From the IMG/VR virus record IMGVR_UViG_3300037518_000174, positions 1-53,431 of that record: a stretch of 53,431 nucleotides of DNA; one strand, given 5' to 3'. Origin of the DNA: a virus (lineage: Duplodnaviria; Caudoviricetes). Position 1 is the stretch's first letter. Each line of letters opens with the position of its first letter. Of this stretch, positions 5,187-53,015 are shown piece by piece. Position numbers and translations under genes: made by a program. The notes under the pieces were generated by a model. It was not told the DNA's origin and made no database searches. It worked only from the letters and a program-made list of their open reading frames with translations.

Positions 5187-5996
5187 CTATCTTTCTAAGT
5201 AATCGACTGCTTTGCGCAATCGATCAATGTCGTCTTTGAAGCTGCCAAGTCCGCTATTGCAGGAAAAACACAACAAGGCACGAACTTTGCCAGTATTGTG
5301 GCAATGGTCAACAGAGAGTTCGGTTACTTTGCCGCGAACCTTTCTCTGCTCAGCATTACCACAAATAGCGCACTTGTTCTTTTGCTTCTTTCTAAGCGCT
5401 ACGTATTCTTCACGAGAAATGCCATATCTGGCCTTTCTACCATACTCTTTGTACTTTCCCGGCCTGAGCTGACGATATGCTCTTTGAAATCTCGCTCTGT
5501 ATGTTTTCTCGTCCTCTCCATCTACCTTGCAGACCATTGATTCCTTCCATACGAAGTTTCCTGGCCCTATCGGCTTTGATTCATCAGCAACAAATAGTTT
5601 GTGCTTGTCACTCGGGCGCTTGCCAATATCGGCAACAAATTGAAGAAAGTCATTCCGCCACTCGTCGCAAATCATTCCGTTCGGGCGGCTCCGCTTCATC
5701 CACATCCAAGAGTTGTATAGTGGGTGCCTTTCCTTCCTGCCCCATCCTTTTGCGCCCCAATCGTCCGGCCTAACTGACTCCGTATGCCCATTCCGCTTAA
5801 ATCTACGGTAATGCTTGTCGCACAAACCGCGAGCTAAAGATAACGAGGCACAGTCTGGAATACGGCACGGATGCCTTTCTCTTTTGGCATATTCAGTCGT
5901 ACCTCGATTGCACCACCGTCGATAGCAAGCGGAACAAAGCCCGCGAGCCACTATCTTGAGATCTCGAAGACAAGCCTTGCACGCCAAAGGAATCAC
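5187..5996 (-). CDS. endonuclease VII-family (His-Me) putative free-standing homing endonuclease with N-terminal Zn-finger repeats
   Basis: CAICG...LSVDHCHNTGKVRALLCFSCNSGLGSFKDD; two Cys-rich ARGLC repeats; HPLYNSW..MK.R motif; visibly more AT-rich than its neighbours. Confidence 0.85.
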   Translation of the reverse strand: MIPLACKACLRDLKIVARGLCSACYRRWCNRGTTEYAKRERHPCRIPDCASLSLARGLCDKHYRRFKRNGHTESVRPDDWGAKGWGRKERHPLYNSWMWMKRSRPNGMICDEWRNDFLQFVADIGKRPSDKHKLFVADESKPIGPGNFVWKESMVCKVDGEDEKTYRARFQRAYRQLRPGKYKEYGRKARYGISREEYVALRKKQKNKCAICGNAEQRKVRGKVTELSVDHCHNTGKVRALLCFSCNSGLGSFKDDIDRLRKAVDYLER

Positions 5997-11734: not shown

Positions 11735-13254
11735 TAGTATCCTGTGGTCATGTTCCTACCCAAATCCATGTGCTTCTCGAAAGCCTCCTGATACTCCCAC
11801 TCCTCCGCTTCCTCGGATGTGGGAGGTTCGATCATCTCGTCTACAATCAGCCCCAACCAGGCAAAGGCGTCGAACTGATCCTTGTAGGCGTACTTCGGAA
11901 ACTTCGTGATTTCTTCCTCAAAGTCCGGGTACCAATCGGCGTCCTTGTCGAACCTAACCCTTCTCGCTCGGGTTCTTGCCTGCATTCCCCGGGCACGTTT
12001 GTCCTTGTCCTTCGTGGGCGGAGCGTCGTCGATGTTGATGAACGGATTCCCGTTCTTGCCCATCTCGTTGTAGAGAACGGGTCCAATAGACTTAGCGATG
12101 TTCTCCGACTCCACTCGGAAGAAAGAGGGCTCATACGCCTTCTGGACCGCGAAGAACTCCTCGAGAATTTCAAGCGCGTCCCACCGGCCCTTTCGCACGT
12201 CAACGATGTGGAGGATTCCGTCGGAATCGACACCGCCTATCACAAAGGCGGTGTAAGCACTTCTATCCGTTTCGCCGATCGCAAGGTCTACTCCGACGTA
12301 GTACTCCTTCGTTCGACTTCGATCTTCGTCCGTCATTGGAACCAGATCGGAGACTCGGAAGTAACCCGTCGTCTCGTCAATCGGGTTGTTCAAATACTCC
12401 TGGCCGTAGATATCCAATATTCCACGGTCAGCGAAGTCCCTTCGCTCCTGTAGCCACCACTCCAATGTGTGAAGCTCGGGCCAAAGAAACTCCGTCATAT
12501 CGTGATCGTGAGCCCTGTATTTGACGGACATCCACGGATGAATGCCTGTCGAATACACCCTCAACGGTTCGATAACAGTGTCTTTCAACTTCTCGTTCGG
12601 CATCGTGCCTTCGAGGAAAGAGCCAAAACCAATGATCGTTCCTACTGCACGGATTCTGCCGTTGTTCCTGACGATCGGCTTGATGGCGCCGTACATATTC
12701 TTCAGGAACTTGTCCCTCCGGGCTTCGTTGAGCACCATTTCCTCGTCTTCGCAATCATCCATCAGGATCTCGTCGGGACGTTTTCGCTCCCACTTCAATC
12801 CCCGGATCTTCTGATCTGTTCCCCTCCCGATGACTCTCGACTTCGAGCCGTCCTTGAACTCGAAGATCAACTCAGTCTCAGTCTCCTTCTTGAACTTGTG
12901 GAACTCCATGTACTGGCGGAGTCTTTCGTTCTCCGCCAGCTCCACCTTGATCTCGTTGATGAACTGAGCCGCGTTGGTCTCGTTCGAGCTTAGAATCAGA
13001 AGATGTCTACAGGATCGAAAGCAGACCCGAAACAGCACATACGCGAACGTGATAGCCGTCGATTTCGCGTGACCCCTGGGGGCGGCGGCGGAACACTGCC
13101 TGTGCTCGGACAGAAACAGCGCCCACAATTCTCTATGGAAAGCCGGAGTCGGACGCGGCTCGTCGTATCGATCCAGTAGAAATTCGTTGGTGAAACCTTC
13201 TAGCGCCTCTGCAAACTCCCAATCCTGTTGTGTTAGGTTGGGTATGCGCTCCAT
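11734..13254 (-). CDS. terL: terminase large subunit
   Basis: Walker A APRGHAKST, Walker B RPDEILMDDCE, QEYLNNP, RNase H-like GVDLA, and FP...KDQFDA. Confidence 0.95.
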   Translation of the reverse strand: MERIPNLTQQDWEFAEALEGFTNEFLLDRYDEPRPTPAFHRELWALFLSEHRQCSAAAPRGHAKSTAITFAYVLFRVCFRSCRHLLILSSNETNAAQFINEIKVELAENERLRQYMEFHKFKKETETELIFEFKDGSKSRVIGRGTDQKIRGLKWERKRPDEILMDDCEDEEMVLNEARRDKFLKNMYGAIKPIVRNNGRIRAVGTIIGFGSFLEGTMPNEKLKDTVIEPLRVYSTGIHPWMSVKYRAHDHDMTEFLWPELHTLEWWLQERRDFADRGILDIYGQEYLNNPIDETTGYFRVSDLVPMTDEDRSRTKEYYVGVDLAIGETDRSAYTAFVIGGVDSDGILHIVDVRKGRWDALEILEEFFAVQKAYEPSFFRVESENIAKSIGPVLYNEMGKNGNPFINIDDAPPTKDKDKRARGMQARTRARRVRFDKDADWYPDFEEEITKFPKYAYKDQFDAFAWLGLIVDEMIEPPTSEEAEEWEYQEAFEKHMDLGRNMTTGY

Positions 13255-13924: not shown

Positions 13925-14488
13925 CTACTCGCTCGCTGGCGACAGGAGAGAGTCGCGTAACATTCCCTCTGGAACCGAAGTGGACCCCCAAACGACGCGA
14001 TACCACGATTGCCTCAACGCCTTCAAATCCATCCTTGCCTGGTAAAGCAAATTGCTTCCTTGAGCCATATCCTTCTCTCGGCTAGAAATTCTGGCATCAA
14101 TCGCATCTAGCCGCTTTCCAAGTCTGTCAATCTCAACCGACTGATCCAGATCTCGAAGCAACGACTCAAGCTCATTTCGATAAGTGCTGAACACATGCTT
14201 CGCCACAAAAAATTGGAAGCTAGCCGGCTCCAGATATACCCGACCATTGCGAGCCCCAATCCGTACACCAGTTAAATCTCCAGAAGAAAACATCCGGCAA
14301 AGATCTGTTCGACTGATGCTCAACCCCAAGTCCCAACAAATGTTACGAGCCTCCGTTGTCGTCAGATACCCTTCCGGCTTTCCTGATACGGTCGGCCTTA
14401 CGCCTTCTCTCTCTTCTACAGGCCTGGCATCGGCTCGGTCTGGGGCCCCTGCGAACAAGCTCCTGAATCTCTCGATTACAGTCCGCAC
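13925..14488 (-). CDS. excisionase/MerR-like (HTH_17-type) DNA-binding protein
   Basis: YLTTTEA...LSISRTDLCRMFSSGDLTGVRIG...GRVYL winged-HTH pattern followed by a coiled coil. Confidence 0.55.
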   Translation of the reverse strand: MRTVIERFRSLFAGAPDRADARPVEEREGVRPTVSGKPEGYLTTTEARNICWDLGLSISRTDLCRMFSSGDLTGVRIGARNGRVYLEPASFQFFVAKHVFSTYRNELESLLRDLDQSVEIDRLGKRLDAIDARISSREKDMAQGSNLLYQARMDLKALRQSWYRVVWGSTSVPEGMLRDSLLSPASE

Positions 14489-14717
14489 AAACGTACTCCC
14501 AATACTTCACAACCTTCATTCCGCATAGTTTACCGCATTATCTGCGCGGAAAAGGCCGTTTTGTTTTTGCTGCCGGATAGCTTGGAGGGGCCTGAGTCGT
14601 CTCGATGAACCGTTTTGCCCCCAGTCTCCTTAACGTCCCTCATGGGACCCATTTCAGAACCGAAAACACTCACGATCCGCGCACCTTCGCATACCTAATG
14701 CGACGCACGTGCTTTGT

Positions 14718-14730
14718 AATCAATAACTTA
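14718..14730 (+). promoter_or_regulatory. IHF-binding consensus in the gap downstream of terS (candidate packaging-initiation region)
   Basis: AATCAATAACTTA matches WATCAANNNNTTR. Confidence 0.5.
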
Positions 14731-14841
14731 CGTGCTTAGAGCGTTGCCTTGCTTAGTCTCGGGCCTCGTTGTAGGCCATGAGTAGGCGCAATGAGAGGGC
14801 GTGTAAGCCCATGTTTTCGGCGTAAGCCATAGTAGCTCGCA

Positions 14842-15369
14842 TTACCCATTCGTCCCGTACGCACTCTCATGTGCAGCCGTCGAGTGATCGAGCCTAATCT
14901 CAATGACTTCACCAGACTCAATAGCCTTCTGTTTGGCTGACTCTCTGAGCTTCGAGAGTCTGTCTTCTGTCGTAACTTCCTTGGCTGTAATGCTGGTCGG
15001 CTGGCCGAGGGAGATCCTGAGCTTGTCTGTGAATAATCCGGCAATCCATGCAGCGTCCTTGCCTGAGACTTGAACCCTGACCTTCTCACCATTCGTAAGG
15101 ACTCGCTCATCCCCGTTGTCTAGCCGGTCTTCGGTGGCGTCAAGGCTCTTGGTAATGATCTTGGTCAGCTTGGCTCGGTGCTCCTCCTGATACTCGGTCC
15201 TGATCTTTTCTGCTACCCGCTCGAATTGATCGGGGAAATGGTCACGCCAGTATCGGATGGTGCACTCGTCTATCCCAGTCAGCTCCTCGGCTTTCTTGAA
15301 TGAGCCCTCGATCACGTAGGCGGCTATGCCTAGCTCTCGCTCATGATCGCTGTACTTTCGGCCTGGCAT
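14842..15369 (-). CDS. terS: terminase small subunit
   Basis: N-terminal HTH (KYSD...GSFKKAEELTGIDECTIRYWR), helical oligomerisation region, and DK.....GQPTSIT tail; upstream of terL. Confidence 0.7.
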   Translation of the reverse strand: MPGRKYSDHERELGIAAYVIEGSFKKAEELTGIDECTIRYWRDHFPDQFERVAEKIRTEYQEEHRAKLTKIITKSLDATEDRLDNGDERVLTNGEKVRVQVSGKDAAWIAGLFTDKLRISLGQPTSITAKEVTTEDRLSKLRESAKQKAIESGEVIEIRLDHSTAAHESAYGTNG

Positions 15370-15373
15370 CTAT

Positions 15374-16141
15374 CTAACTCCCTGTTCTTGGTAAGTTTTG
15401 CTCAAACTCATCAAGCCATTCAATTAAAGAGATAACAATTGGCCTTACCTTGCGAGCTTCATCTGTGGTCAGCTCCGCTGCAACAACGGGTGACTTCCTG
15501 TGCAGAATATTATTCACAGACTTTAAGGTCGGGCCTGACGAATCACTAATCAGCCACACATAAGCGTCTGACGATCTCCTTTTCGTTGCAAGCGCAGCTA
15601 ATTGTCGCTTTGAAACCCCTCGATCGACGAGCTTATCGAATTTCTTTTTCTCGATTCTAGCGAACCTCACCGCATGAGCCGCATCATTCGCCGTTAACCC
15701 GGTCTGCCTCAATCTGCCACTGACTCCAAGAGGCTTACCCTTGCCTTTAGAGTCATCTATCACGCCAGATGCCGAGCCACCACGATGCGCATTGGCATAA
15801 TGCGTGTTGCACACTCCCCTAGAATAAACAGCATTAAGACACCCAGAAATCTTGCAAGCCTCAATCGATTTCTTTTTCGTAGGCCAAAGTAGCTCCGCTA
15901 ACTCAGCCATCTTGCGCAGAGAAACCTGATCAAGTTTATTGGCCTTGCGAAGATGCTCTTTATCCTTGTGAATCTTCGACCAGAATGCGTATCTATCAGC
16001 GTAGTCCTTCCAATATCTCGCGTCGTCAAGAGTAATGCAGGCATCCAAATACTTAATCGCTCGCTCGTATTCGACTATCTCGAACGGCTTGCGTCCGCCA
16101 GTAATCTGTCGTGCCTGCTGTTCAGTAATGACTGCTTTCAT
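15374..16141 (-). CDS. basic putative DNA-binding protein with a CxxxxC..CxxHY Zn finger
   Basis: CKISGCLNAVYSRGVCNTHY motif; basic composition; more AT-rich than flanks. Confidence 0.55.
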   Translation of the reverse strand: MKAVITEQQARQITGGRKPFEIVEYERAIKYLDACITLDDARYWKDYADRYAFWSKIHKDKEHLRKANKLDQVSLRKMAELAELLWPTKKKSIEACKISGCLNAVYSRGVCNTHYANAHRGGSASGVIDDSKGKGKPLGVSGRLRQTGLTANDAAHAVRFARIEKKKFDKLVDRGVSKRQLAALATKRRSSDAYVWLISDSSGPTLKSVNNILHRKSPVVAAELTTDEARKVRPIVISLIEWLDEFEQNLPRTGS

Positions 16142-16145
16142 CTCT

Positions 16146-16436
16146 CTACAAATCCTCGGTGCTGACTTGGTTGGTGCTCAAAAACTCGTCTTCGGGCTCA
16201 GGGCTCAACTGCGCTGTGTGCCGCTCGCCCCGTGCCCTGAGTAGATCCTGGGGGTGCCGGGATTCGATGAACTCAGGCAATACCCAGAGTCCGTCCCATT
16301 GCTCTACCAGCTCGCCCCGCTTGGCCCTGAAGCCTGACCTATCGCAGATGTCGTATGTGCTCGGATGCTCTTGGGCATCGGGGTTGGTCTCGGAGTAGTC
16401 CGAGAATGTGCCTGCGGGCTTCTCAGAGTCGCTCAC
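16146..16436 (-). CDS. small virion-associated protein, paralog of 43098..43463 (probable GTG start at 16436)
   Basis: SDSEKPAGTFSDYSETN...ICDRSGFR...GLWVLPEF..SRHPQ; GTG overlaps the upstream TGA. Confidence 0.75.
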   Translation of the reverse strand: MSDSEKPAGTFSDYSETNPDAQEHPSTYDICDRSGFRAKRGELVEQWDGLWVLPEFIESRHPQDLLRARGERHTAQLSPEPEDEFLSTNQVSTEDL

Positions 16437-16780
16437 GCGCAATCGCTGTCACAGACGGAAATGATATGACCCGACTCCACACCTAGGATTTTCTCGGCAT
16501 CGGCCGGTATCCAGTGTGAGCCCGTGGTCGCATTCGTCCCGCCAGGGCTGATGTTGTAGAAGGTCTTTCCGTCACAGATGATCCCTATGAACCGCGTGGT
16601 CTGCGCAAAAGGGGCAGAATCAACAGCGGTCGAGAAATCATCAAGATGCTGCTCTGGCCTGTCACCGTCATCGTGTGCGGCCGGAATATTGACGTTCGCA
16701 ACATCGGTGTACTCGATAATGTGGCAGTCGGTCGCCCATGCACTGACAGGAAATAGGAAAATCAGTAGAAATCGCTTCAT
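16433..16780 (-). CDS. signal-peptide-bearing paralog of 51660..51959 (putative spike-base protein)
   Basis: Sec-type signal MKRFLLIFLFPVSAWA; the mature part aligns with 51660 (S.PF...T, ATT...W.PAD, V..GH.ISV). Confidence 0.8.
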   Translation of the reverse strand: MKRFLLIFLFPVSAWATDCHIIEYTDVANVNIPAAHDDGDRPEQHLDDFSTAVDSAPFAQTTRFIGIICDGKTFYNISPGGTNATTGSHWIPADAEKILGVESGHIISVCDSDCA

Positions 16781-16783
16781 GGT

Positions 16784-18814
16784 CTATATCCCAAGATTGA
16801 TGAATCCACCACTGACCCCGCCCGCATCCTGACACACCCCACCTACGGCGAGCTGGATGGTGCTCACGAAGTCAGTCGCCAGAATCGTTTGGCTATCGAC
16901 GTTTCCAGTGCCCTGATCCGAGCCACAGGCCCGCGTGGTCGTTACCGTGAAGCCCTGCCCTTCGAGGGTAGAGGTTGCGGTTGCTTCCGCATTCCCAACC
17001 TGGCTAGCCACGGTATCGACAGTGACCGAAAGCCTCCCGGTAGAATCCGTCGTCAAAGTCCCGTCAGACGCCCGGAAAACGATCAGGTCGTCCGTTTCGT
17101 CCATGTCCGGTGTCCCCTGGAACTCGGTCATCGAGATGCTGAGACCCGATGTGGTGGCGTTTCCTATCGTCCCTATGTCCACATCGTCCAGGTCGGTGCA
17201 GGAAGCGGAAGAATCGAGGTGCAGCCTTGAGTTGAAAGGATCGATCCACAGGACCCGATGCCACTTGTCATTGTCGGCGTCGATCTGGATATGATCGCCA
17301 GCGGTGTAACCGGATTCGTCGGTGACTACTAGCGAGGAGCCTGATTGCGTCCCGTCACAGGTGGACTCTGCTGTTGGGGCCGAGCGTTGCTGATAGCTGT
17401 AACTCGTCGCGCCTGAGAAATACCCATCGGATAAATCAATGGCCGCCATCGCCTCGTCTTTGGCGAGCACGAAGTTCTGTAGCGTTGCGGCTGTACCGTA
17501 TTCAGGGGGAGGATCGACTAGCTCAAGTGTCGCCTCGGACCCCGAATAAGCTGAACTCGACGAGTAATCGCAGTCAACAGCCGTCACGTCCTCTGGAGCA
17601 ATAAACGACCCATCAGCATTGAGCGTAATATCGTCTATGTCAGACGTATCGGCCATGACGTTGCCGATAGCCATTTGATCGCCGTCAGTCAGATCGGTAG
17701 GAAAGCCCCAACACCTACCGGGATTGCCTTCCTCGTCGAATGGTGTATCGGTCGGACCCCAGACGCCTGAAAGAAAGGCTGTTCCGATGTTGACGAAATC
17801 GACACCTGTCTGAGCCGTGGCCGTGATCTCTAACGATCCGTCAGCCGCCGAGTTGTTCGTGACCGTCAGATTGCAGGTGCCGTACTTCAGGCCGCTGGTA
17901 ACACCGAACCCGACGATATCCTCGTCGAATTGAATCGAGGTATCAGCCCACGAATCAATGCTTGTCAGTTCTGCCGTCTGCCCTGCACACGTCAACTCTA
18001 CCGTTCCGGCCCCTTGAGTCGCACCGAACCCAGTCCCGGTAACGACGACGTTTAGCTGCCCTGCGGTAATCGATTCGTCGGTGTCTACATCGGTGACTGT
18101 TACAGTAGAGGCAACAGCCTGATTGAATACGGCCGCACAAAGAACCTGATCCCCTAAGCCGCTATCCGAGTCTCCTACAACGCTGACAGTAAGACCGGCT
18201 GTTCCGGTCGTTAGCGCATCCGCCCCAGAATAAGCATGGGCTGACGGATGAGCATCGAACGCTTCAGTTAAGTTTGTCCATGCTGCTGTGTAATCTCCGC
18301 CTGGGTCGCTTCGGCTCAAAACACCAACAGCAAAACCACCGTCGACGCTTGTCAGGCTTGCCGATAAAGAGATAAGCGAATTTGTGTTGTTATCTTCGTC
18401 AGCGTCCGAATTGGCAACAACGCTTGAAGTCGCTAAATCAGTTACCGTATAGGCGTAATAGATATCATTGCCATTGCCCGTTGCCGCTGGAACGATGACG
18501 GCCGTCGTATCGTTAGGGTTTGCCAGATACCAGATAGAGCAACTGGCCTCGTCACTTGTACCAGTGTAATCGCCATCCATGACCGCCAGCGTGAGACCGA
18601 CAGAATCATGCGTGATACTGCTCGGTGGCTCCGCTGTATCTGAGGCTCGCCTGTGCGCCCCGACGACAATCAAGCCCTCGCCGGCAGCAACCGCAGGCCC
18701 GGTAACGGTCGGGTCCGAATACTCGTTGGAGACCGCGATATCGGCCTGCCCGATTATGGGAAATAGGGCACAGAAAAGGACCGGAATCAGGCTATACTTG
18801 AGCCGCCTAATCAT
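16784..18814 (-). CDS. secreted multidomain beta-rich protein (IPT/TIG-like, Ig-like, C-terminal PASTA-like); probable start at ATG 18814
   Basis: Signal MIRRLKYSLIPVLFCALFPIIGQA; TIG-like VVVTGTGFGATQG.GTV...SW.DTSI; PASTA-like VGNAEATATSTLEGQGFTV...GNVDSQ. The 120 aa before this ATG overlap other genes and look non-coding. Confidence 0.8.
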   Translation of the reverse strand: MIRRLKYSLIPVLFCALFPIIGQADIAVSNEYSDPTVTGPAVAAGEGLIVVGAHRRASDTAEPPSSITHDSVGLTLAVMDGDYTGTSDEASCSIWYLANPNDTTAVIVPAATGNGNDIYYAYTVTDLATSSVVANSDADEDNNTNSLISLSASLTSVDGGFAVGVLSRSDPGGDYTAAWTNLTEAFDAHPSAHAYSGADALTTGTAGLTVSVVGDSDSGLGDQVLCAAVFNQAVASTVTVTDVDTDESITAGQLNVVVTGTGFGATQGAGTVELTCAGQTAELTSIDSWADTSIQFDEDIVGFGVTSGLKYGTCNLTVTNNSAADGSLEITATAQTGVDFVNIGTAFLSGVWGPTDTPFDEEGNPGRCWGFPTDLTDGDQMAIGNVMADTSDIDDITLNADGSFIAPEDVTAVDCDYSSSSAYSGSEATLELVDPPPEYGTAATLQNFVLAKDEAMAAIDLSDGYFSGATSYSYQQRSAPTAESTCDGTQSGSSLVVTDESGYTAGDHIQIDADNDKWHRVLWIDPFNSRLHLDSSASCTDLDDVDIGTIGNATTSGLSISMTEFQGTPDMDETDDLIVFRASDGTLTTDSTGRLSVTVDTVASQVGNAEATATSTLEGQGFTVTTTRACGSDQGTGNVDSQTILATDFVSTIQLAVGGVCQDAGGVSGGFINLGI

Positions 18815-18972
18815 CGGAGAGAACCATGCTGAAGAAAATCCGAGACTGGCTGTTTCCAACACGCCGGACGTACACCGAAAAAACCGATCACGTCTGCGGC
18901 CAGCACTACGCTCTCGACGCGAAAACTGGCGATCCCTACTGCGCCGTATGCAATAACGATCTCGCCTGACAT
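18811..18972 (-). CDS. 53-aa hydrophobic peptide (MSGEIVIAYG...)
   Basis: Fills the gap exactly, with a TGATG overlap upstream and an ATGA overlap downstream. Confidence 0.5.
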   Translation of the reverse strand: MSGEIVIAYGAVGIASFRVESVVLAADVIGFFGVRPACWKQPVSDFLQHGSLR

Positions 18973-20951
18973 CACCACCCCAAGCTCGAGAAGTTTTCGA
19001 GCTGCAAGGTGTTGTACAGCTTGCCAAGGAGCGTAGAGAGATCGTCTCCCTGCGCGTCCGACCAGATGATGTTGTCGTAACGGTGCTCGACGGAATCCAG
19101 AGTAGAGATACCGTTGTTCTGCCACGGGTCCTGATACGCGCCCATTGAGTGGGCCTGAATGTGTGGGCCTGCATTGGGACTGGCGTTCTCGAACTGGTAG
19201 ACGCCCGGATGAATCGTCGATCCGTTCCAAATGAATTTCGCCTCCGTCGGTTCTACACCTGCTAGCTCAGCGTAGAAGTGGAACTCCCCATTACCCCCTT
19301 CGGCGTCCGTCCTCGAATCGGGACGGAATATCAGGTAGATATCAAGTACCAGCCCTTCCATGCTGGCCTCGCCGAAATCGGATGCCGTTGCCATCGTGGA
19401 TGTGACGCCACCACCGCCGCTACAAGTGCCGCCACTGAAAAACCCTGCCGACTTGTTGCGCCGTGACAGAGTGTCGATTTCGTCCTCGGAGATACCGATA
19501 GACCAGTTGGGATTGACCTGGTTATGCCACGGACATCCAATCTCCGTCTGCCAGCTCGTGAAATGCGGTCGTAGGTTTTGCCACTGGTGCATTCCGCCGC
19601 CGTCGTCCCGAACTTTGGTGATTGTGGTCGAGTAGGCGATTCCGAGAAGATCGGGATTACAACCTGCTCCGGTACAAGTCGCAGCTTGCTCGGACGTGTA
19701 GACGTAGTTGTGGGTGTACTCGGAAGTGTCTCTGGTTGGAACAGGAGCACTCCCGACATACGTTGCCGCGAAAAACAACGTATCTTTCGGCAGCCGAATC
19801 TCGGCGCGTCCGCAGGTTCCAGAGTCTTCTAGGAACGCACGAAAGGCGTTACCGCTCTTGGGACCGCCGCTCGCTATGATTTCCGTGATGCTGCAAGCCT
19901 GACCCGCACCTGCACCGACGCGGGTCCAGACATTGTTGAAGTCTGCCGAAGTCGTCTTTACACCGGCTGAATAGCCCTCCCAATCCTCCATGAACAGGAT
20001 TTGACTCGACGAAAGCAAATCACCGCCACCGCCGCCGCCAGCCAAGTCGGTCGTTCCCGAAGCGCAAGAACTCCAATCAGACTCATTGGCCGCAGGAGAA
20101 GAATCAACGGCAAAGACTTTGAACCAGTAGGTTGTCGAAGCAGTTTTGCCGCCAGAAGTCCTAGACGTGTCAGGCGGTATCGTGGCAGAGCCGAAACTCT
20201 CGTTGCTTTCACATGCGCTCAGGCTCGTGCTTGAGCTTGAAACGTAGTAGGCCGCTATTCCAGAAGCGTCCGTGGAAGCATCCCACGAAATTTCCAGACA
20301 GGTGTCGCCGTTGGTCGAGCAGGGCAGGACCGTTACGTTACTTGGAACTGTAGGTGCAGTCGTATCGGAAGGGTCGGCAACGTCGAAAGTAAAAGTCTCG
20401 TCGGTCGGTGTATTCGTGCCAGTAGGGGATTGAGGCGTACACGTCAGGGTGATATCGACAGATTCCTCAGTGTCCGGTGTTACCGTGAGAACGCCTGAGG
20501 TAAAATCGAACTCGGCGCCCATTTCACCGGAGATTTCATCGGTCTCGCCGGCAGCAATCGTGACAGCAACCGTTACGCCCTCGCCGGCCTGGCACCAATC
20601 GGTGAAGTTGAACTCGTATGGAGTCCCTATTTGTAGGGCTTGAGTCGTATCGACAGGAGTCCCTTCCTCGTTCTCCCACCGGGCTGTAAAGACGAAAGCG
20701 AACTCGGGATTGGTCGAGCGATTACCGCCGATCACAGCTATCGTGACTGAGTTCTGCCCTTCTCGGGCTTGTGGCTGTGCATTCGCAACTCCAATCAGGG
20801 ATCGCAGATACACGATGGCCGCACTGACGCACGTATCGACAGTCGCCTCGCAGCTCCAAGTGTCCTCTCGTGTGAGCGTGACTTGTGCAAGCACGGGCGC
20901 GAGCATGACGAATGCGAACACGCCGGCTAGGCGGGGGATGAATCGGTTCAC
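18972..20951 (-). CDS. secreted protein with Ig-like, fibronectin type III and polysaccharide-lyase/ConA-like domains
   Basis: Signal MNRFIPRLAGVFAFVMLAPVLA; FN3 DTTAPTVPSNV...ISWDASTD...Y...YWFKVFAVD...NESDWS; Gly linker; C-domain LFMEDWE...RAEIRL...YDNI. Confidence 0.8.
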   Translation of the reverse strand: MNRFIPRLAGVFAFVMLAPVLAQVTLTREDTWSCEATVDTCVSAAIVYLRSLIGVANAQPQAREGQNSVTIAVIGGNRSTNPEFAFVFTARWENEEGTPVDTTQALQIGTPYEFNFTDWCQAGEGVTVAVTIAAGETDEISGEMGAEFDFTSGVLTVTPDTEESVDITLTCTPQSPTGTNTPTDETFTFDVADPSDTTAPTVPSNVTVLPCSTNGDTCLEISWDASTDASGIAAYYVSSSSTSLSACESNESFGSATIPPDTSRTSGGKTASTTYWFKVFAVDSSPAANESDWSSCASGTTDLAGGGGGGDLLSSSQILFMEDWEGYSAGVKTTSADFNNVWTRVGAGAGQACSITEIIASGGPKSGNAFRAFLEDSGTCGRAEIRLPKDTLFFAATYVGSAPVPTRDTSEYTHNYVYTSEQAATCTGAGCNPDLLGIAYSTTITKVRDDGGGMHQWQNLRPHFTSWQTEIGCPWHNQVNPNWSIGISEDEIDTLSRRNKSAGFFSGGTCSGGGGVTSTMATASDFGEASMEGLVLDIYLIFRPDSRTDAEGGNGEFHFYAELAGVEPTEAKFIWNGSTIHPGVYQFENASPNAGPHIQAHSMGAYQDPWQNNGISTLDSVEHRYDNIIWSDAQGDDLSTLLGKLYNTLQLENFSSLGW

Positions 20952-20960
20952 GGTGTCTCC

Positions 20961-20991
20961 AAAAGAGAGAGGCCCGAACTAGCAGGCCTCT
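20961..20991 (-). terminator. tR'-like intrinsic terminator in the late leader
   Basis: Minus strand AGAGGCCTG-CTAGTT-CGGGCCTCT followed by CTCTTTT, just before the RBS of 20951. Confidence 0.65.
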
Positions 20992-21081
20992 GTGGGTGCC
21001 GTCGAGGGGGGGGGAGTGACGGCTTTTTAGTGGGACTAGGGTGCGGCTTTTTCGGGGCGAGCGAAGCCGCTGAGATGGCCT

Positions 21082-21109
21082 AGTGTGCCATAACAGACTA
21101 GAGAATCAA
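21082..21109 (-). promoter_or_regulatory. candidate pR'-like late promoter
   Basis: TTGATT at the Q stop, 16-bp spacer, extended -10 TGG-CACACT; canonical position directly after Q. Confidence 0.4.
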
Positions 21110-21474
21110 GAGTTTTCCAGCCTGAAGATGTAGTGCCCGACTAAGAATCTGGCCTGCCTCAACATAGCCGTCACGCGCTCTGTCGGGTAATTGTGCTGCC
21201 TCGCAATCTCGTACTCCGAAGGCTCGCCAGGATTCAGGTAGAAGTCTGCGAAGACACGCCAGTAATCTTTTCGCTTCACCCGCATCTGGGCCACGGCCTT
21301 GTCCGTCACGGCGATTTCCTCGGTGGGCTGCGTGTCGTGCGCGTGGTCTAGCCGCTCCCTGAGATACCCTATCGCAGTACCCTCGGCACCGGGCATCGGA
21401 CATCGGGCCCATGCGGCCCATCTGCTCAGCCTGGCGTGAAGCCAGCCGTCTTCCTGCTCTGGTACTGCCGCCAT
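21106..21474 (-). CDS. late antitermination protein Q-like
   Basis: RLSRWAAWAR N-terminus, D.AVAQM...VF..FY, C-terminal HTH EIARQ...L.QA; last early gene before the late genes. Confidence 0.75.
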   Translation of the reverse strand: MAAVPEQEDGWLHARLSRWAAWARCPMPGAEGTAIGYLRERLDHAHDTQPTEEIAVTDKAVAQMRVKRKDYWRVFADFYLNPGEPSEYEIARQHNYPTERVTAMLRQARFLVGHYIFRLENS

Positions 21475-21693
21475 CGGCTAATCCCCTACCTGAGTTCTTC
21501 AAACCGCGTGTAGTAGAGTCGTCCGCGCCAGTAATAGGCTTCGATATAGCACCACTCGTTGCACTCTACGATGCGCTGCCCGAATCGCTTGGCTAAAAAC
21601 TTCATCATGCCCAACTACCCTCAAATGGCGACCGCCACGCCTCACAGGCAACCCAATCGCGTTCGGCGCTTTCGAGAGAAGTAAGGCGGGCGG

Positions 21694-21882
21694 TCATACT
21701 GGAAGTCTCAAGGCATACTCGTCGAGATCGTCGACACGACATTCGAGCTTCGACATTGCCGTGGCGTACTTGTCCTGCCAGTTGTCGAGCTCAAGTTCTA
21801 GGCGGCGGATCTTCTCGTCTCGGTCGCGGATCATTTGCTCCATGGTGTCTTCAGAGAGGAAAGCGCCTCGGTGGTCTTTCAT
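21694..21882 (-). CDS. hypothetical coiled-coil protein
   Basis: ATGA overlap with the upstream gene. Confidence 0.55.
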   Translation of the reverse strand: MKDHRGAFLSEDTMEQMIRDRDEKIRRLELELDNWQDKYATAMSKLECRVDDLDEYALRLPV

Positions 21883-22262
21883 GGGCGCTCACTCCAGTCG
21901 CTGGTAATGCATGTCGTTGTCGTTACCGTCGTCGCAGTGTCATCTACCGGGCAATCTGTCGCCCTGACTCGGAACCAGTAAATGTCTCCCGGCTCTTTTG
22001 AATCAGATCTGAAGTAATAGCTATAAGCGGCCTCATCAACGTCGGCATCGAACGTGCCGATGTTGACCATGTGAACGCCGATAACACCGACGATGAAAGC
22101 AGTCAGCGCAACATTGAGGGGACTCACCACTCTCGGGCGCTCGAACGCGGGTTCTTCATAGGCGAAGAAATACTCGAACTCCTGCCAGTCAGGATCACTC
22201 TTGTTCGGTGGAATCTCGACGAAAGTCCCAGTGCCATCCCAAGGGTATTGGTCGTCGCTCAT
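21879..22262 (-). CDS. single-pass membrane protein (probable start 22262)
   Basis: TM segment VALTAFIVGVIGVHMV; FN3-like C-terminal strands YWFRVRATD...SDWS. Confidence 0.55.
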   Translation of the reverse strand: MSDDQYPWDGTGTFVEIPPNKSDPDWQEFEYFFAYEEPAFERPRVVSPLNVALTAFIVGVIGVHMVNIGTFDADVDEAAYSYYFRSDSKEPGDIYWFRVRATDCPVDDTATTVTTTTCITSDWSERP

Positions 22263-41597: not shown

Positions 41598-43097
41598 TCA
41601 CAGCTCATACTCAAAATTGATAAACAGACGGTCGCCATCGGCCCATGTGAACGGGGTCGTTTTAGTCACTGAATTAGCCGTTGTCGGAATAGCCAGACGG
41701 ACCGTTGTCGCTGATGCAGAACCCTCTACAGCGCATTGGTAGAAGTTTCCTGTTGCGTCGATTAGCTGTGCATTTCCTACTTGCTTGCCGAGAGCAGAAG
41801 TCATGGCTTTTGGTAAGCTGAAGTTCCACTGCCCACCAGTGCCGAATGTCGTGCTCGATCCTATTTGCAGATGAATCTGCACCGACATCTTTCTACCGCG
41901 TTGGGTGTAGAAGGATTGCAGGGTTCCATCGCCGATGACATTGGTTCCGCCGCTGGCATCGGTCCATGCCACCGAGTAAGAGGCTCTGCCATCGTAAATG
42001 TCGTTTACGTCAGTCGTGTTGTCGGTGATCGTGACGCCGTTGTTTCGAAGATGCCCAAATCCGTGGAACTCGCAGTCGATAAGCCCGTCCGTAAGCGTCA
42101 GCTCTGCCCCGGAGGTCAGCGTATTTCCCGGCCCCCACACGATGCCGGAGAAGGCTGTCGTGCCGTCGCCAATCGTGACATCGGCAGCCGATGCGAGCGC
42201 ATTTCCGTCGATGTGCAACTGCTGTTTTTCGAGAGTGGTCAAGCCTCCAACGCGATTACCGTGAACATAGTTCCCGGCATTACCACCCACCATCTTGAGC
42301 TTGCCGAACTGATTGCCGAAGATAGCGTGCCCGCCAGCAGAGCCGGTCTGATTGAAATAGAATCCTCCCGTGGCCTGCGCAGTTGTAATACCTATAATCC
42401 GACTGTATAAGCCCTCTCCCTCGACTACGATGTCCCATCCGTCCGCCGACGTGTCGAGCGTTTCGTACCTTGAATTGGTGCTGATAATTCTGAGGCCGTT
42501 ACCGTCCGAATCATAAACAGGGCGGCCTTCGACATTCCGCGATGAGCAATGATCGAGCACCAGACTCGGGACGGTCTTGACGATGTTGTCGCCGGTAAAT
42601 GTCGTTCCGTCTCCGTCGAAACGTCCGTTAAAAACAGCATTCTGCTGCCCGCTGAAAGTGATTAAAGGACCATTGGCGTTCTTCTTGATGACCGCATTGC
42701 CGAAGAAATGAAACGTCTGAGTCGTATTGTCGGCAGTCAGGTTGTTCGCCAGGTATAGCCCGTCAGGGAACAGAACGGGTTTAGCTGTATCTATCGCTGA
42801 CTGAATAGCGGCAGATACATCCAACAGTCCTGCCCGTGTCACGACATCCGTAACTTGAGCGGTAGTCATAAACCTGAACACACTGGCAGCGAGAGTAACG
42901 TCGCTTAGATGCTGAAAACTGATCGGCGTGACTTCGGCATCGTCCTCTGCTTGGGTTTGTTCAGTCCCAAGTAGTTGCGCGATAGTCGCCTTCTGGGTCG
43001 GAATCGCACCACCCTTCCACAAGGCAACCGTGTTGGTCCCGTGACTGACGGAACTCGCCGCCGTCAGATCGTTGATGGTTTTGTTCAGATCAACCAT
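41598..43097 (-). CDS. tailspike / receptor-binding protein (beta-helix depolymerase-like)
   Basis: D.SAAIQSAID...VLFPDGLY cap, GN-rich beta-helix, and C-terminal domain Y...W...IG.GTL...Y.Q.GR...W.FSLP. Confidence 0.8.
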   Translation of the reverse strand: MVDLNKTINDLTAASSVSHGTNTVALWKGGAIPTQKATIAQLLGTEQTQAEDDAEVTPISFQHLSDVTLAASVFRFMTTAQVTDVVTRAGLLDVSAAIQSAIDTAKPVLFPDGLYLANNLTADNTTQTFHFFGNAVIKKNANGPLITFSGQQNAVFNGRFDGDGTTFTGDNIVKTVPSLVLDHCSSRNVEGRPVYDSDGNGLRIISTNSRYETLDTSADGWDIVVEGEGLYSRIIGITTAQATGGFYFNQTGSAGGHAIFGNQFGKLKMVGGNAGNYVHGNRVGGLTTLEKQQLHIDGNALASAADVTIGDGTTAFSGIVWGPGNTLTSGAELTLTDGLIDCEFHGFGHLRNNGVTITDNTTDVNDIYDGRASYSVAWTDASGGTNVIGDGTLQSFYTQRGRKMSVQIHLQIGSSTTFGTGGQWNFSLPKAMTSALGKQVGNAQLIDATGNFYQCAVEGSASATTVRLAIPTTANSVTKTTPFTWADGDRLFINFEYEL

Positions 43098-43463
43098 TTA
43101 CAAATCTTCCGCCCTGACCTCACGCACTGAGCCGGTCAAGATGTTGCCTCCCGTTCCTGTCGAGATGTAGAAGCCGTCACCCGTAATCAGGATGTTTCCT
43201 GTTCCAATGAATACGTCTGGCCCTTCCGGCCGTCTCGCCATACCGCCACGCTCCTTCGCCGGAGAAGGTCTTTCCTGTGGGTGTCTTGAATCTCTAAACT
43301 TGGGTAGAACCTTGAGTCCGTACCTGTCCGTCACGAGATCGCGAGGATCTACCCGGAAACCTGACCGCTGGCAGATTTCGTCTCGTCGGGTATTGGTGAA
43401 GGTGTTGGAGTTTGTTTCGGAGTAGTCTGAGAAGGTGCCGGAGGGCTTTTCGGAATCACTCAT
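43098..43463 (-). CDS. small virion-associated protein, paralog of 16146..16436
   Basis: MSDSEKPSGTFSDYSETN...ICQRSGFR...GLKVLPKF.DSRHPQ; extra ILITGDG..I.T..GGNILT tail. Confidence 0.75.
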   Translation of the reverse strand: MSDSEKPSGTFSDYSETNSNTFTNTRRDEICQRSGFRVDPRDLVTDRYGLKVLPKFRDSRHPQERPSPAKERGGMARRPEGPDVFIGTGNILITGDGFYISTGTGGNILTGSVREVRAEDL

Positions 43464-51659: not shown

Positions 51660-51959
51660 CTATGCACTCACCACTACGCTAATCACATGACCCGCACGCA
51701 CCAGAAAGTACTCCCAATTGTCAGCGGGCACCCACGGATCGCTCGTAGTAGCCGTTGGGTTCACACCGAATGAATAATGAAACTGGCTGTCTGATTGAAT
51801 GCGGACACACTTGGTGTCCAAACTGAAAGGGATGCTTTTCGTCTCAGTCGAATAGCTAACCGTCTGTACGTTAAGACTCGGCTGTTTTGCGATAAGGATG
51901 ACCTGCCCCGACTTATAGGTGCCGGGGTAAGAAAATTCCTCTACAACAAGCGTTGCCAT
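51660..51959 (-). CDS. small virion beta protein (putative spike base); cytoplasmic paralog of 16433..16780
   Basis: Located in the structural operon; aligns with the mature part of 16433; no signal peptide. Confidence 0.75.
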   Translation of the reverse strand: MATLVVEEFSYPGTYKSGQVILIAKQPSLNVQTVSYSTETKSIPFSLDTKCVRIQSDSQFHYSFGVNPTATTSDPWVPADNWEYFLVRAGHVISVVVSA

Positions 51960-53015
51960 CTACATCCCCATTCCCATTCGAGACATAACCATTCGATGCT
52001 TTTTCCTGAAAAACCCTTGGCCTTGGTTTGGTTCACCCAAACTCGGAAACGATACTTGACTATCCGCCTCTACGTTTTCTGCTGACAGTACGTGCACCTG
52101 ACCTACTGACGGATACGTAACCTCAGACGCCGACTCGATATCCTCAGCCGATAGCTCGTCCGTACCGCTGCTCTCGCTTAGGGCCGGAGCCGTTAACTCG
52201 GAATCGCTCTCTACATCGTCCGCTAGAAGTCCATGCTCTTGGCCTAGAGCCGGAGTCGATACTTCCGACACAGATTCAGTATCAGCAGCCAGAATCACAT
52301 GGACCTGGCCTAACGAGGGTGAAGTTATCTCGCTTAACGACTCAACATCCTCGGCGAGAAGGATGTTGCTTTCGCTCGCCGTAGGAGCCGATACTTCGGT
52401 ATCGCTCTCTACGTCATCCGCGAGTAGCGCGTGGGTCTGACCTAAGGCCGGAGCGGAGACTTCAGACGCACTCTCAACGTCGCTCGCAAGTAATGCGTGC
52501 TCTTGTCCTATGGCTGGAGAAGTGACCTCAGAAGATGACTCGACATCTTCAGCCAATAGGTCATCTGTAGGAACACCTGGCGTATAAGTAACACGTACCG
52601 TGAAGGCCGACCAAGAACACGTCTCGGCATCGTCCTTCATATTCGCGGAATAGTTCGCGGAATACGCGATCTCATCCCAATCGGCAGATACTGCCGTGCC
52701 AGGCGCCGGGGAAGGCGAGGAGCCATCGGCTATCGTGTCGCTACCGACACTAGCGCCTAGAGATGCAGAGCAGGCCGCTGCTGCATCGCTGCCGAAATCA
52801 CCCCAAACGGCGGTACCGCCCGTGGTTTGAATCCGCCAGCGTATGCCTATCGTGTCGTCTGTCGCGCCGTCCGAGTTGAGTGACGGCGTTCCAACAACAG
52901 ATACGTCATCAATCGTCGCGCCGTCGAAATCTCCGGGCGGTGTGATTCCGTTGCTTGCAGACCCAGCGGCACCTACTCCACTACCAGCCGGAGCTGTGAT
53001 ATCCCAGGTAGCCAC
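51960..53015 (-). CDS. acidic fibre-like virion protein with eight ~22-aa repeats and C-terminal MGMGM tail
   Basis: N-terminal globular domain, then L(L/S)AxDVESxSEVxxPx(L/I)GQxH repeats and a basic/hydrophobic tail. Confidence 0.75.
   Translation of the reverse strand: MATWDITAPAGSGVGAAGSASNGITPPGDFDGATIDDVSVVGTPSLNSDGATDDTIGIRWRIQTTGGTAVWGDFGSDAAAACSASLGASVGSDTIADGSSPSPAPGTAVSADWDEIAYSANYSANMKDDAETCSWSAFTVRVTYTPGVPTDDLLAEDVESSSEVTSPAIGQEHALLASDVESASEVSAPALGQTHALLADDVESDTEVSAPTASESNILLAEDVESLSEITSPSLGQVHVILAADTESVSEVSTPALGQEHGLLADDVESDSELTAPALSESSGTDELSAEDIESASEVTYPSVGQVHVLSAENVEADSQVSFPSLGEPNQGQGFFRKKHRMVMSRMGMGM
52030..52562 (-). repeat. eight degenerate ~66-bp (22-aa) tandem coding repeats
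   Basis: e.g. ALLASDVESASEVSAPALGQTH / ALLADDVESDTEVSAPTASESN / ILLAEDVESLSEITSPSLGQVH. Confidence 0.9.

What the first reader, a model, noticed from the sequence alone, without database searches (positions are those of the whole stretch)
16146..20951. Exported 'second spike module': signal-peptide, Cys-rich late proteins that mirror the virion fibre/base genes
Seen in sequence: three genes in this cassette (18972..20951, 16784..18814, 16433..16780) begin with Sec-type signal peptides and carry many Cys residues. They are tightly coupled and lie directly behind Q and a pR'/tR'-like leader, before terS. 16433 is a clear paralog of the cytoplasmic structural-operon gene 51660, and 16146 is a paralog of 43098. 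The order 'long fibre-like gene ending in a hydrophobic-Gly tail, then the ~100-aa paralog' occurs in both places (51960->51660 and 16784->16433). Established: tailed-phage virion proteins normally fold in the cytoplasm without signal peptides. Inference: the phage exports a duplicate spike module during late infection so it can fold oxidatively in the periplasm. It would then dock on virions at or after lysis, or act as a released decoy/adhesin or a host-surface structure. I know of no described system like this.
Basis: partly seen in the sequence, partly recalled or inferred. Interest (0 to 1): 0.92.

Follow-up and report, generated by a model that had tools for sequence, protein, structure and literature searches.

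The report
Phage fibre module carrying export signals
A temperate short-tailed phage encodes, at the start of its late genes, three fibre-like proteins that carry bacterial export signals and paired cysteines, so they probably fold outside the cytoplasm where phage particles are built.

Summary
The window is a complete 53,431-base phage record with terminal repeats. Three coupled late genes (18972-20951, 16784-18814, 16433-16780, minus strand) have Sec-type N-termini. They lie behind a weak Q-like gene and a terminator-like hairpin. Both paralogies are real (E 1e-10 and 2e-25).

New here: the 115-aa protein belongs to a large unnamed all-beta family, with 1026 representatives at E<=1e-3. The family has two forms. 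Leaderless ~100-aa proteins sit in phage head/neck operons. ~120-aa forms carry a signal peptide plus a cysteine pair: 53 of 61 against 2 of 90. Leader forms sit next to other leader-bearing fibre or depolymerase-like proteins in late operons of unrelated phages, including a Bradyrhizobium prophage. The partner often ends in a conserved glycine-rich tail.

Export and oxidative folding are well supported. Docking on virions after lysis is inference. It is helped by a cultured Cellulophaga phage whose three leader-bearing proteins are annotated as MS/MS-detected virion proteins. This scan has noted leader-bearing phage fibres before on other DNA. My paper searches found no description.

The parts
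21106..21474 (-). Q-like late antiterminator candidate (122 aa)
   Evidence: phrog_79 'anti-termination protein Q-like' E 1e-4 over residues 16-119. Pfam Phage_antitermQ E 0.0073, 16.7 bits, below the cut-off of 26. A weak call.
20952..21105 (-). Leader between the Q-like gene and the first cassette gene. It holds a terminator-like hairpin at 20991-20968 followed by a T-run, then GGAGA and the GTG start.
   Evidence: Terminator-like site listed; sequence read. No sigma-70-like promoter was found here by the scan.
18972..20951 (-). P0001, 659 aa: leader, Ig/FN3-like region, Gly linker, and a C-terminal domain of unknown fold. 14 Cys.
   Evidence: Translation. Leader heuristic. fn3 E 0.015, below cut-off. 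No PHROG. PDB sequence search found only FN3-like matches at E 0.05. Residues 524-635 are 29% identical to an ORF fragment at the upstream end of locus L024, which also holds a leader-bearing module.
18811..18972 (-). Unannotated 53-aa hydrophobic ORF that bridges P0001 and P0002
   Evidence: TGATG and ATGA overlaps. KD12 of 2.15. No Pfam hit. It may not be a real gene.
16784..18814 (-). P0002, 676 aa: leader, N-terminal domain shared with leaderless relatives, a confident beta-sandwich at 235-345, a two-Cys C-terminal domain, and a glycine-rich C-terminal tail. 10 Cys in the mature part.
   Evidence: The AF2 model is confident only for about residues 235-345 (mean pLDDT 47.7).
16433..16780 (-). 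P0003, 115 aa: leader-bearing member of the small all-beta family, with the conserved Cys pair (C19, C69) plus a C-terminal CDSDC
16146..16436 (-). P0004, 96 aa, no leader: paralog of 43098
   Evidence: E 2e-25. 16 of 17 N-terminal residues are identical, with 8 synonymous codon differences. One other relative, P0020, was found.
51660..51959 (-). P0005, 99 aa: leaderless member of the same small family, in the structural operon
   Evidence: AF2 model with 104 sequences: pLDDT 94.1, eight strands.
51960..53015 (-). P0007, 351 aa: repeat-rich fibre-like protein just upstream of P0005. Not homologous to P0002.
   Evidence: 65% identity over the repeats to L020 2383-3657.
43098..43463 (-). P0006, 121 aa: paralog of P0004. 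It lies between a 951-aa virion protein and a 499-aa leaderless fibre-position protein.
41598..43097 (-). 499-aa leaderless protein at the tail-fibre position, just before the endolysin gene
   Evidence: phrog_13144 and phrog_12488, both of unknown function, match its C-terminus. The endolysin phrog_894 is next. No leader by the heuristic.

Best explanation
The cassette is a late-expressed, Sec-exported appendage module of a temperate podophage.

Step 1, inferred from anatomy: transcription enters from the late promoter region through a Q-dependent terminator, and the genes are translated as one coupled block together with the packaging genes.

Step 2, well supported: P0001, P0002 and P0003 are sent across the inner membrane, lose their leaders, and fold with disulfide bonds in the periplasm.

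Step 3, inferred from conservation only: the glycine-rich C-terminal tail of P0002 pairs with the small beta-sandwich P0003. The same pairing is seen in many other phages.

Step 4, inference: when holin and endolysin break the envelope, the exported complex meets the cytoplasm-built particles. It attaches to them through P0004, the non-exported paralog of P0006. This gives the virion a second, oxidatively folded fibre set beside its ordinary 499-aa fibre.

I put steps 1-2 at about 0.85 and the whole chain, including virion attachment, at about 0.4.
For: Export:
- 3 of 3 cassette genes have canonical n/h/c regions, against about 1-2 of the 66 other ORFs.
- The only close relative of P0003 (P0008, 50% identity) keeps the leader and the cysteines.
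- Among 151 family representatives, 61 carry a leader. Of these, 53 have both conserved Cys, against 2 of 90 leaderless members (Fisher p 1.7e-29, not corrected for phylogeny).
- Mature Cys counts are even: 14, 10 and 4.

Module character:
- In 11 of 12 loci where the N-terminus of the upstream neighbour is on the contig, that neighbour also has a leader. The exception (L028) has its leader-bearing partner downstream.
- In the 3 rows with a leaderless small gene, 3 of 3 upstream neighbours lack a leader. Two of those rows (L022 and L023) are near-identical loci.
- Partner C-termini share a two-Cys domain and a tail ending R-I-G-L/M or similar, and P0002 fits this pattern.

Structural-operon residence:
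- L020: the module lies between the major head protein and the tail proteins phrog_394 and phrog_376.
- Bradyrhizobium sp. YR681 prophage L028: it lies between the head-tail adaptor and head closure genes.
- G001 and L004/L015: it lies just before the packaging genes, as it does here.
- The leaderless member in Pelagibacter phage HTVC106P lies two genes after the head protein.

Link to the virion:
- In G001 the gene after the module is a Pfam Gp77 fibre-tail adaptor (E 5.8e-14). The RBP-type domains I found in G001 (Pect-lyase_RHGA_epim and Beta_helix in one protein, a weak below-cut-off Beta_helix match in another, Laminin_G_3 in a third) are all on leader-bearing proteins. I scanned 7 G001 proteins in Pfam, not all of them.
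- G001 and every other locus hold only one member of the small family. In G001 it is the leader form.
- The N-terminal 17 residues of P0004 and P0006 are conserved against 8 synonymous changes, which suggests a shared docking partner.

Precedent: Cellulophaga phage phi18:3 gp085-087 all start with leader-like N-termini. Its record annotates them as virion, structural or tail proteins 'based on experimental MS/MS proteomics'.
Against: - No experiment and no trained signal-peptide predictor was used. The leader calls rest on my own heuristic.
- The leader of P0001 depends on the choice of the GTG start.
- Virion assembly is cytoplasmic in all textbook tailed phages, so export separates these proteins from the particle until lysis.
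- This phage already has a leaderless fibre-position gene (41598-43097) with its own P0006, so the cassette is not needed to explain infectivity.
- P0004 shows no similarity to Gp77 (hhalign probability 0.3%) or to any solved chain. Its adaptor role is a guess from position and paralogy.
- P0002 and P0007 are unrelated.
- The position directly behind Q is also the classic place for non-structural late cargo.
- MS/MS detection in phi18:3 may reflect co-purifying proteins, and that phage is unrelated.
- A later check of a similar claim on other DNA in this scan put the bold reading at 9 in 100.
- The Fisher test treats relatives as independent.
Confidence: 0.4

Rival explanations
1. The proteins are exported but never become part of the particle. 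They act in the periplasm, or as free proteins released at lysis. Possible roles are masking or destroying receptors on the dying cell and its debris, loosening capsule or exopolysaccharide, or binding neighbouring cells as a decoy or adhesin.
For: - This reading is the simplest one given the topology, because export separates the proteins from cytoplasmic assembly.
- The module in G001 includes a leader-bearing pectate-lyase-like beta-helix protein and a ConA-like lectin domain. L035 has a neighbour with a Tat-like twin-arginine N-terminus. These are typical of enzymes that act outside the cytoplasm.
- The window phage has an ordinary leaderless fibre-position gene.
- Phage late proteins that use Sec are known (signal-peptide endolysins, spanins; recalled).
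Against: - In L020 and L028 the module sits inside the head/neck/tail operon.
- In G001 I saw no leaderless protein with a receptor-binding-type domain, and a virion fibre-tail adaptor gene follows the module.
- Leaderless relatives of both P0003 and the N-terminal domain of P0002 exist in phage contexts.
- No enzyme domain was found in P0001-P0003 themselves.
Confidence: 0.33
2. The cassette is a lysogenic-conversion moron. It is expressed from the prophage to change the envelope of the lysogen, for example for superinfection exclusion or an adhesin, as with lambda Lom/Bor, HK97 gp15 or T5 Llp.
For: - The phage is temperate: integrase Pfam E 2.3e-24.
- Leader-bearing single genes inside structural operons are the classic moron pattern (recalled).
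- One family member lies in a resident prophage of a cultured Bradyrhizobium.
Against: - No promoter-like site lies between the Q-like gene and the cassette, and a terminator-like hairpin sits directly upstream.
- The genes are translationally coupled to each other and run on into the packaging genes.
- GC content is like the rest of the genome: 0.55-0.57 against 0.49-0.59.
- The module has several genes, and its relatives also occur in a complete 39-kb phage record and in metagenome contigs with phage structural genes. A pattern scan of 185,579 species genomes with one subgroup found none, and a second subgroup found one.
Confidence: 0.1
3. The hydrophobic N-termini are not cleaved export signals. 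They would be membrane anchors, assembly helices or start-codon artefacts, and the proteins would stay cytoplasmic.
For: The start of P0001 is ambiguous. No predictor or experiment was available.
Against: - Three independent genes show the full n/h/c pattern with small residues at positions -3 and -1.
- The leader is conserved in 61 family representatives and tracks a Cys pair. That would make little sense in a reducing cytoplasm.
Confidence: 0.05

Closest known systems
Late cargo behind Q in lambdoid phages (Shiga-toxin phages: toxin genes between Q/tR' and the lysis genes; recalled knowledge)
   Same: Genes with Sec leaders sit directly downstream of a Q-like gene and a terminator. They are therefore made only late, accumulate in the periplasm and are freed by phage lysis.
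   Different: There is no similarity to any toxin or to any named Pfam or PHROG family. The genes are relatives of phage structural-operon genes. In other phages the same module lies inside head/neck/tail operons, not behind Q.
Leader-bearing virion proteins of Cellulophaga phage phi18:3 (gp085, gp086, gp087; record NC_021794.1)
   Same: Three consecutive large proteins have Sec-type N-termini and are encoded upstream of the lysis and packaging genes. The record annotates them as virion, structural or tail proteins from MS/MS.
   Different: It is an unrelated phage of a Bacteroidota host, with cleavage before Gln. I did not search it for the small beta-sandwich family. I found no paper that discusses the leaders.
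Envelope morons in structural operons (lambda Lom and Bor, HK97 gp15, T5 Llp, phi80 Cor; recalled)
   Same: Exported or membrane proteins encoded among or next to tail genes.
   Different: Those are single small genes with their own promoters and are expressed from the prophage. Here there is a coupled block of several genes without a detectable promoter, and its parts are homologous to leaderless phage proteins.
Podophage GP4 fibre-tail adaptor gp77 (Pfam PF23148; PDB 8JOU as cited in PMC13730344, passages read)
   Same: In the related record G001, the leaderless ~100-aa gene that follows the exported module is a member (E 5.8e-14). P0004 holds the same position here.
   Different: P0004 and P0006 show no detectable similarity to it.
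Signal-peptide and SAR endolysins, and spanins (recalled)
   Same: Late proteins of tailed phages that use the host Sec system.
   Different: Those are lysis functions. No lysis domain was found in the cassette. The endolysin lies elsewhere, at 41169-41588.
Head-spike base and fibre of the Rhodobacter gene transfer agent
   Same: A small protein encoded next to a fibre that carries a Gly-rich terminal peptide.
   Different: A confident model of P0005 (pLDDT 94.1) has no PDB match at E<=0.001, and no gene-transfer-agent chain appears among the 50 rows listed.

Membership tests
Sec / signal peptidase I signal peptide (P0001, P0002, P0003) | Positively charged n-region without acidic residues | tested here: met
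   2-3 K/R and 0 D/E before the hydrophobic core in all three.
Sec / signal peptidase I signal peptide (P0001, P0002, P0003) | Hydrophobic h-region of about 10-15 residues | tested here: met
   Best 12-residue Kyte-Doolittle means are 2.62, 2.67 and 2.25. Most other ORFs score below 1.6.
Sec / signal peptidase I signal peptide (P0001, P0002, P0003) | Small residues at positions -3 and -1 of a cleavage site | tested here: met
   Read: V-L-A|Q, G-Q-A|D, A-W-A|T. The rule itself is recalled.
Sec / signal peptidase I signal peptide (P0001, P0002, P0003) | Call by a trained predictor (SignalP, DeepSig), or experimental cleavage | not testable with these tools
Unnamed small all-beta phage family (P0003, P0005) | Significant match to the family profile over the whole mature length | tested here: met
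   Against the A5 profile, P0003 scores E 1.2e-25 and P0005 E 4.3e-35. The family has 1026 representatives at E<=1e-3. It has no Pfam or useful PHROG entry: the best PHROG family matched only 2 of 104 members scanned.
Leader-bearing sub-lineage of that family (P0003) | Signal peptide plus Cys just after the cleavage site and Cys in the central I-C-D motif | tested here: met
   P0003 has C19 and C69. C69 is invariant and C19 nearly invariant in 53 leader forms. 53 of 61 leader forms have both, against 2 of 90 leaderless forms.
Leader-bearing sub-lineage of that family (P0003) | Adjacent leader-bearing partner with a two-Cys C-terminal domain and a glycine-rich tail | tested here: met
   P0002 aligns with 11 partner C-termini. 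11 of 12 assessable upstream neighbours have leaders. Physical binding was not shown.
Lambdoid Q-dependent late cargo (Stx-type) | Location between Q/terminator and the rest of the late operon | tested here: met
   The Q call is weak.
Lambdoid Q-dependent late cargo (Stx-type) | Homology to a known toxin or virulence family | tested here: not met
   No family at E<=0.1 other than a weak fn3 match and a chance-level 12.9-bit match (eIF3m_C_helix, E 0.09) in P0001.
Podophage GP4 fibre-tail adaptor Gp77 (PF23148), for P0004/P0006 | Match to the Pfam model or to a member | tested here: not met
   No Pfam hit. hhalign probability 0.3% against the G001 member.
Gene-transfer-agent head-spike base, for P0005/P0003 | Fold similarity to the solved chain | tested here: not met
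   Foldseek of the pLDDT-94 model against the PDB: 0 of 715 matches at E<=0.001. Profile against PDB sequences: best E 0.41, a cytochrome oxidase subunit.

The most novel reading that the evidence does not exclude
Part of a tailed-phage particle is built outside the cytoplasm. A widespread lineage of fibre-plus-cap modules is exported by Sec, locked by disulfides in the periplasm, and joined to DNA-filled particles only when lysis mixes the compartments. Joining would go through a small cytoplasmic adaptor. The window phage would then carry both a cytoplasmic and a periplasm-matured appendage set.
Probability: 0.35. Interest if true: 0.9.

Novelty: new variant of a known kind. Interest (0 to 1): 0.72.

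Why it matters
Tailed-phage particles are taught as purely cytoplasmic assemblies. If a common class of fibre or decoration modules matures in the periplasm, three things follow.
- Receptor-binding parts could use disulfides, and perhaps periplasmic modification.
- Assembly would have a post-lysis step.
- Gene callers and phage annotation pipelines would be mislabelling such genes as host-like secreted proteins or morons.

Even under the rival reading (free exported proteins), this is a conserved, undescribed late function found in several unrelated phage types.

The family-level signature found here, a leader tracking a cysteine pair in a roughly 100-residue domain, gives a clean, testable handle. 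The members in a cultured Bradyrhizobium prophage and the Cellulophaga phage precedent make the question experimentally approachable.

Tried and rejected
Searches and models that led nowhere:
- Known families. Pfam and PHROGs gave nothing for P0001-P0007 beyond a weak fn3 match and a chance-level match in P0001. Scanning 104 small-family members against PHROGs gave at most 2 members for any one family.
- Solved structures by sequence. Nothing useful for P0001, P0002, the small family or the P0004 family.
- Cultured phages. No DNA match for 14000-22000. No tblastn match for P0006, P0002 or the leader form P0029.
- Atlas look-ups gave only weak leads.
- AF2 model of P0002 with 12 sequences: mean pLDDT 47.7, so I did not send it to a fold search.
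- Complex prediction of mature P0003 with the last 70 residues of P0002: no verdict, score 0.00. This is evidence neither way.
- Sequencing runs: one DNA run, possibly the source, and no RNA holder listed. I did not lay reads.
- Pattern scans that found no relative: P0006 and P0002 in viral contigs, alignment A12 in viral contigs, alignment A4 in species genomes.

Ideas rejected:
- P0002 and P0007 as paralogs.
- P0004 as a Gp77 member.
- A fold match to the gene-transfer-agent head-spike base.
- A lipoprotein signal in P0002. The residue before its Cys is Phe; this was judged by eye and the lipobox rule is recalled.

Listings and abstracts only were seen, except passages of PMC10367356 and PMC13730344. 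None described it.

Full report
WHAT THE WINDOW IS. The window is a whole virus record of 53,431 bases with direct terminal repeats. It carries a tyrosine integrase (Pfam E 2.3e-24), so the phage is temperate. All late genes are on the minus strand and wrap around the record end. Their order is:
- a Q-like gene (21106-21474), a leader, then P0001, a 53-aa ORF, P0002, P0003 and P0004;
- a 255-aa gene and an HTH protein that may be the small terminase;
- the terminase large subunit (11734-13254), portal and head genes;
- after the wrap, P0007, P0005 and head closure Hc3;
- ejection proteins, a 951-aa virion protein, P0006, a 499-aa protein and the endolysin.
This is a P22-like podophage layout. 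Nothing close exists among cultured phages (no DNA match; best terminase identity 46.6%).

THE OBSERVATION. By a hydrophobicity and charge heuristic, the three cassette proteins have textbook export leaders, and almost no other ORF of the phage does. Their cysteine content is moderately raised, and the mature counts are even (14, 10 and 4). The genes are joined by overlapping or nearly abutting stops and starts. The correct start of 16146 is probably GTG 16436. A terminator-like hairpin with a T-run lies 17 nt before the GTG start of P0001, and no promoter-like site lies in the leader. The Q assignment is weak but is supported by two libraries. Both claimed paralogies are significant. The leader of P0001 depends on the GTG start, which has a good ribosome-binding site. 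One public gene call starts it 15 residues later.

THE SMALL PROTEIN BELONGS TO A LARGE, TWO-FORM FAMILY. A word-based search found only one relative of P0003. That relative keeps the leader and the cysteines. A profile of P0003, that relative and P0005 was then run against 1.84 billion representatives. It found 1026 proteins at E<=1e-3 and 74 at E<=1e-10.

The 150 best fall into two length classes. Proteins of about 96-106 residues start directly with the first strand. Proteins of about 114-127 residues match from profile position 1-9 and begin with a leader that ends in a small-x-small site followed by x-Cys.

In a MAFFT alignment of 151 of them, 61 carry a leader by my rule. Of those, 53 have both the post-cleavage Cys and a central Cys. 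Only 2 of the 90 leaderless proteins have both, and one of those two looks like a truncated leader form. The Fisher p of 1.7e-29 ignores relatedness, but the pattern is what export into an oxidising compartment predicts.

An AF2 model of P0005 with 104 sequences is confident (pLDDT 94.1): eight strands and no helices. It matches nothing solved (0 of 715 PDB matches at E<=0.001). It does match nine uncharacterised viral proteins of about 100 residues at E<=0.001. The family has no Pfam or PHROG name.

These returned 2 and 4 viral loci, 20 metagenome loci and 1 species-genome locus. One of the 4 viral loci (L034) repeats the Bradyrhizobium prophage, and one (L036) carries a leaderless form. Every locus holds exactly one family member. 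Only the window holds two, one of each form.

Of 21 rows with a leader form, the N-terminus of the upstream neighbour is on the contig in 12. In 11 of those 12, the neighbour also has a leader. L009 and L010 are near-identical, as are L004 and L015.

The partner usually ends in a roughly 45-residue two-Cys domain and a tail such as G-I/V-K/R-G-P-R-I-G-L, L-R-I-G-M or V-S-I-G-M/P. P0002 aligns with these and P0007 does not.

The module's position in each phage:
- G001, a complete 39,003-base podophage record. Six consecutive leader-bearing ORFs precede the packaging genes. Among them are a pectate-lyase-like beta-helix protein and a ConA-like domain. A leaderless Gp77 fibre-tail adaptor follows (E 5.8e-14). 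The gene at the tail-fibre position after the ejection proteins also has a leader-like start.
- L004/L015. The pair sits just before the terminase, portal and head genes.
- L020, with T7-like gene order. The module lies between the major head protein and the tail proteins phrog_394 and phrog_376, next to a glycosyltransferase.
- The Bradyrhizobium sp. YR681 prophage, a siphophage layout. The small gene and a 498-aa leader-bearing partner lie between the head-tail adaptor and head closure genes.
- L033 and L035. The small gene is followed by two or three Cys-rich exported proteins, one with a Tat-like N-terminus.
- Leaderless members lie two genes after the head protein in Pelagibacter phage HTVC106P and before a portal-like gene in L036.

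So this is a structural-operon module that exists in a cytoplasmic form and an exported form. The exported form is not peculiar to the Q-proximal cargo slot.

THE OTHER PARTS. P0002 has 11 partial relatives. They share the confident beta-sandwich at about 235-345. Six share its N-terminal domain but start without a leader, and one (P0009) has a leader. The C-terminal region of P0001 has one weak relative, an ORF fragment at the upstream end of locus L024, which also holds a leader-bearing module.

P0004 and P0006 form a tiny family with one further member. They share a conserved core and a terminal E/S-D-L. Their first 17 residues are 16/17 identical although 8 codons differ synonymously. This points to selection for one shared binding partner. 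They match neither Gp77 nor any solved chain.

HOW IT MOST LIKELY WORKS. Two things are shown or strongly indicated: late, coupled expression, and export with disulfide formation. Two further steps are inferred: the tail of P0002 pairs with P0003, and after lysis the complex joins particles through P0004. Four points support the last step.
- The module lives in structural operons in other phages.
- G001 has an adaptor gene but no leaderless receptor-binding candidate that I could see.
- Several phages carry only the leader form of the small family.
- The record of cultured Cellulophaga phage phi18:3 lists gp085-087 as virion, structural or tail proteins from MS/MS, and all three have leader-like N-termini cleaved before Gln.

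Four points count against it.
- The topological barrier holds until lysis.
- This phage has an ordinary fibre-position gene.
- The Q-proximal position is also classic for cargo.
- No experiment has been done.

I give the full chain 0.4 and an exported but free function 0.33. A lysogen-expressed moron gets 0.1 and non-export 0.05.

COMPARISON WITH WHAT IS KNOWN. Sec use by late phage proteins is known for endolysins, spanins, Shiga toxin and envelope morons (recalled). Signal peptides on unknown Porphyromonas phage genes were noted by Matrishin and others, who suggested outer-membrane modification (PMC10367356, passages read). I found no paper that describes exported fibre or decoration modules of tailed phages. 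The A1002 podophage paper notes that its fibre protein gp41 lacks about 30 N-terminal residues in the map and suggests proteolysis (PMC13730344, passages read). I did not follow that lead.

This scan has repeatedly noted 'phage tail fibres carrying export signals' on other DNA. One such claim was later priced at 9 in 100 for the bold reading, and another partly fell. What this window adds:
- a defined small family whose leader state tracks a cysteine pair;
- a conserved partner tail;
- a phage that carries both forms;
- a leaderless adaptor-like paralog pair.

VERDICT. I class the finding as a new variant of a known kind: Sec-exported late phage proteins, here a structural-type module. The bold reading is not excluded, at about 0.35.

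Noticed in passing
window 18811-18972 (-): A 53-aa hydrophobic ORF whose start overlaps the stop of P0001 (TGATG) and whose stop overlaps the start of P0002 (ATGA). No family hit. It could be a small membrane protein or only a coupling artefact.
   Followed up: partly
G001 (L006 14299-15471): In the related 39-kb podophage record, the 390-aa gene at the tail-fibre position, after the ejection proteins and before the lysis genes, also starts with a leader-like segment. I saw no leaderless receptor-binding candidate in that genome.
   Followed up: partly
L035 4442-7729: A 1095-aa neighbour of a leader-form small gene starts with a twin-arginine (S-R-R-D-F-I) Tat-like N-terminus. This was judged by eye, and the consensus is recalled.
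   Followed up: no
L020 11381-12052; L021 4362-5006; also L016, L018, L024: Glycosyltransferase-like genes follow the exported module in L020 (phrog_1962, E 1.3e-29) and L021 (Pfam GT2-like, E 8e-6). Downstream genes in L016, L018 and L024 share the N-terminal motif of the L021 protein by eye. This raises the question of whether these proteins are glycosylated.
   Followed up: partly
window 2310-3559 (-): A 2OG-Fe(II) oxygenase (E 1.2e-10) and a SAM methyltransferase (E 3e-13) lie among the head-accessory genes. This confirms part of another first-reader note. The two flanking genes gave no Pfam hit.
   Followed up: partly
window 53015-53290 (-) and 5187-5996 (-): A 91-aa protein with 9 Cys (9.9%) lies just upstream of P0007. 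A 269-aa protein with 15 Cys carries an endonuclease VII domain (E 2.7e-24) and sits right after the major head gene.
   Followed up: partly
L031 (NC_021794.1 32891-38583): Cellulophaga phage phi18:3 gp085-087 are three consecutive proteins with leader-like N-termini cleaved before Gln. Its record annotates them as MS/MS-detected virion, structural or tail proteins.
   Followed up: yes
PMC13730344 (Pseudomonas podophage A1002): The authors report that fibre protein gp41 lacks its first ~30 residues in the map and suggest proteolytic removal. Whether that stretch is a signal peptide was not checked.
   Followed up: no
window 51960-53015 vs L020 2383-3657: The acidic ~22-residue repeats of P0007 are 65% identical to a 424-aa protein encoded before the scaffold gene of an otherwise unrelated T7-like contig.
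   Followed up: partly
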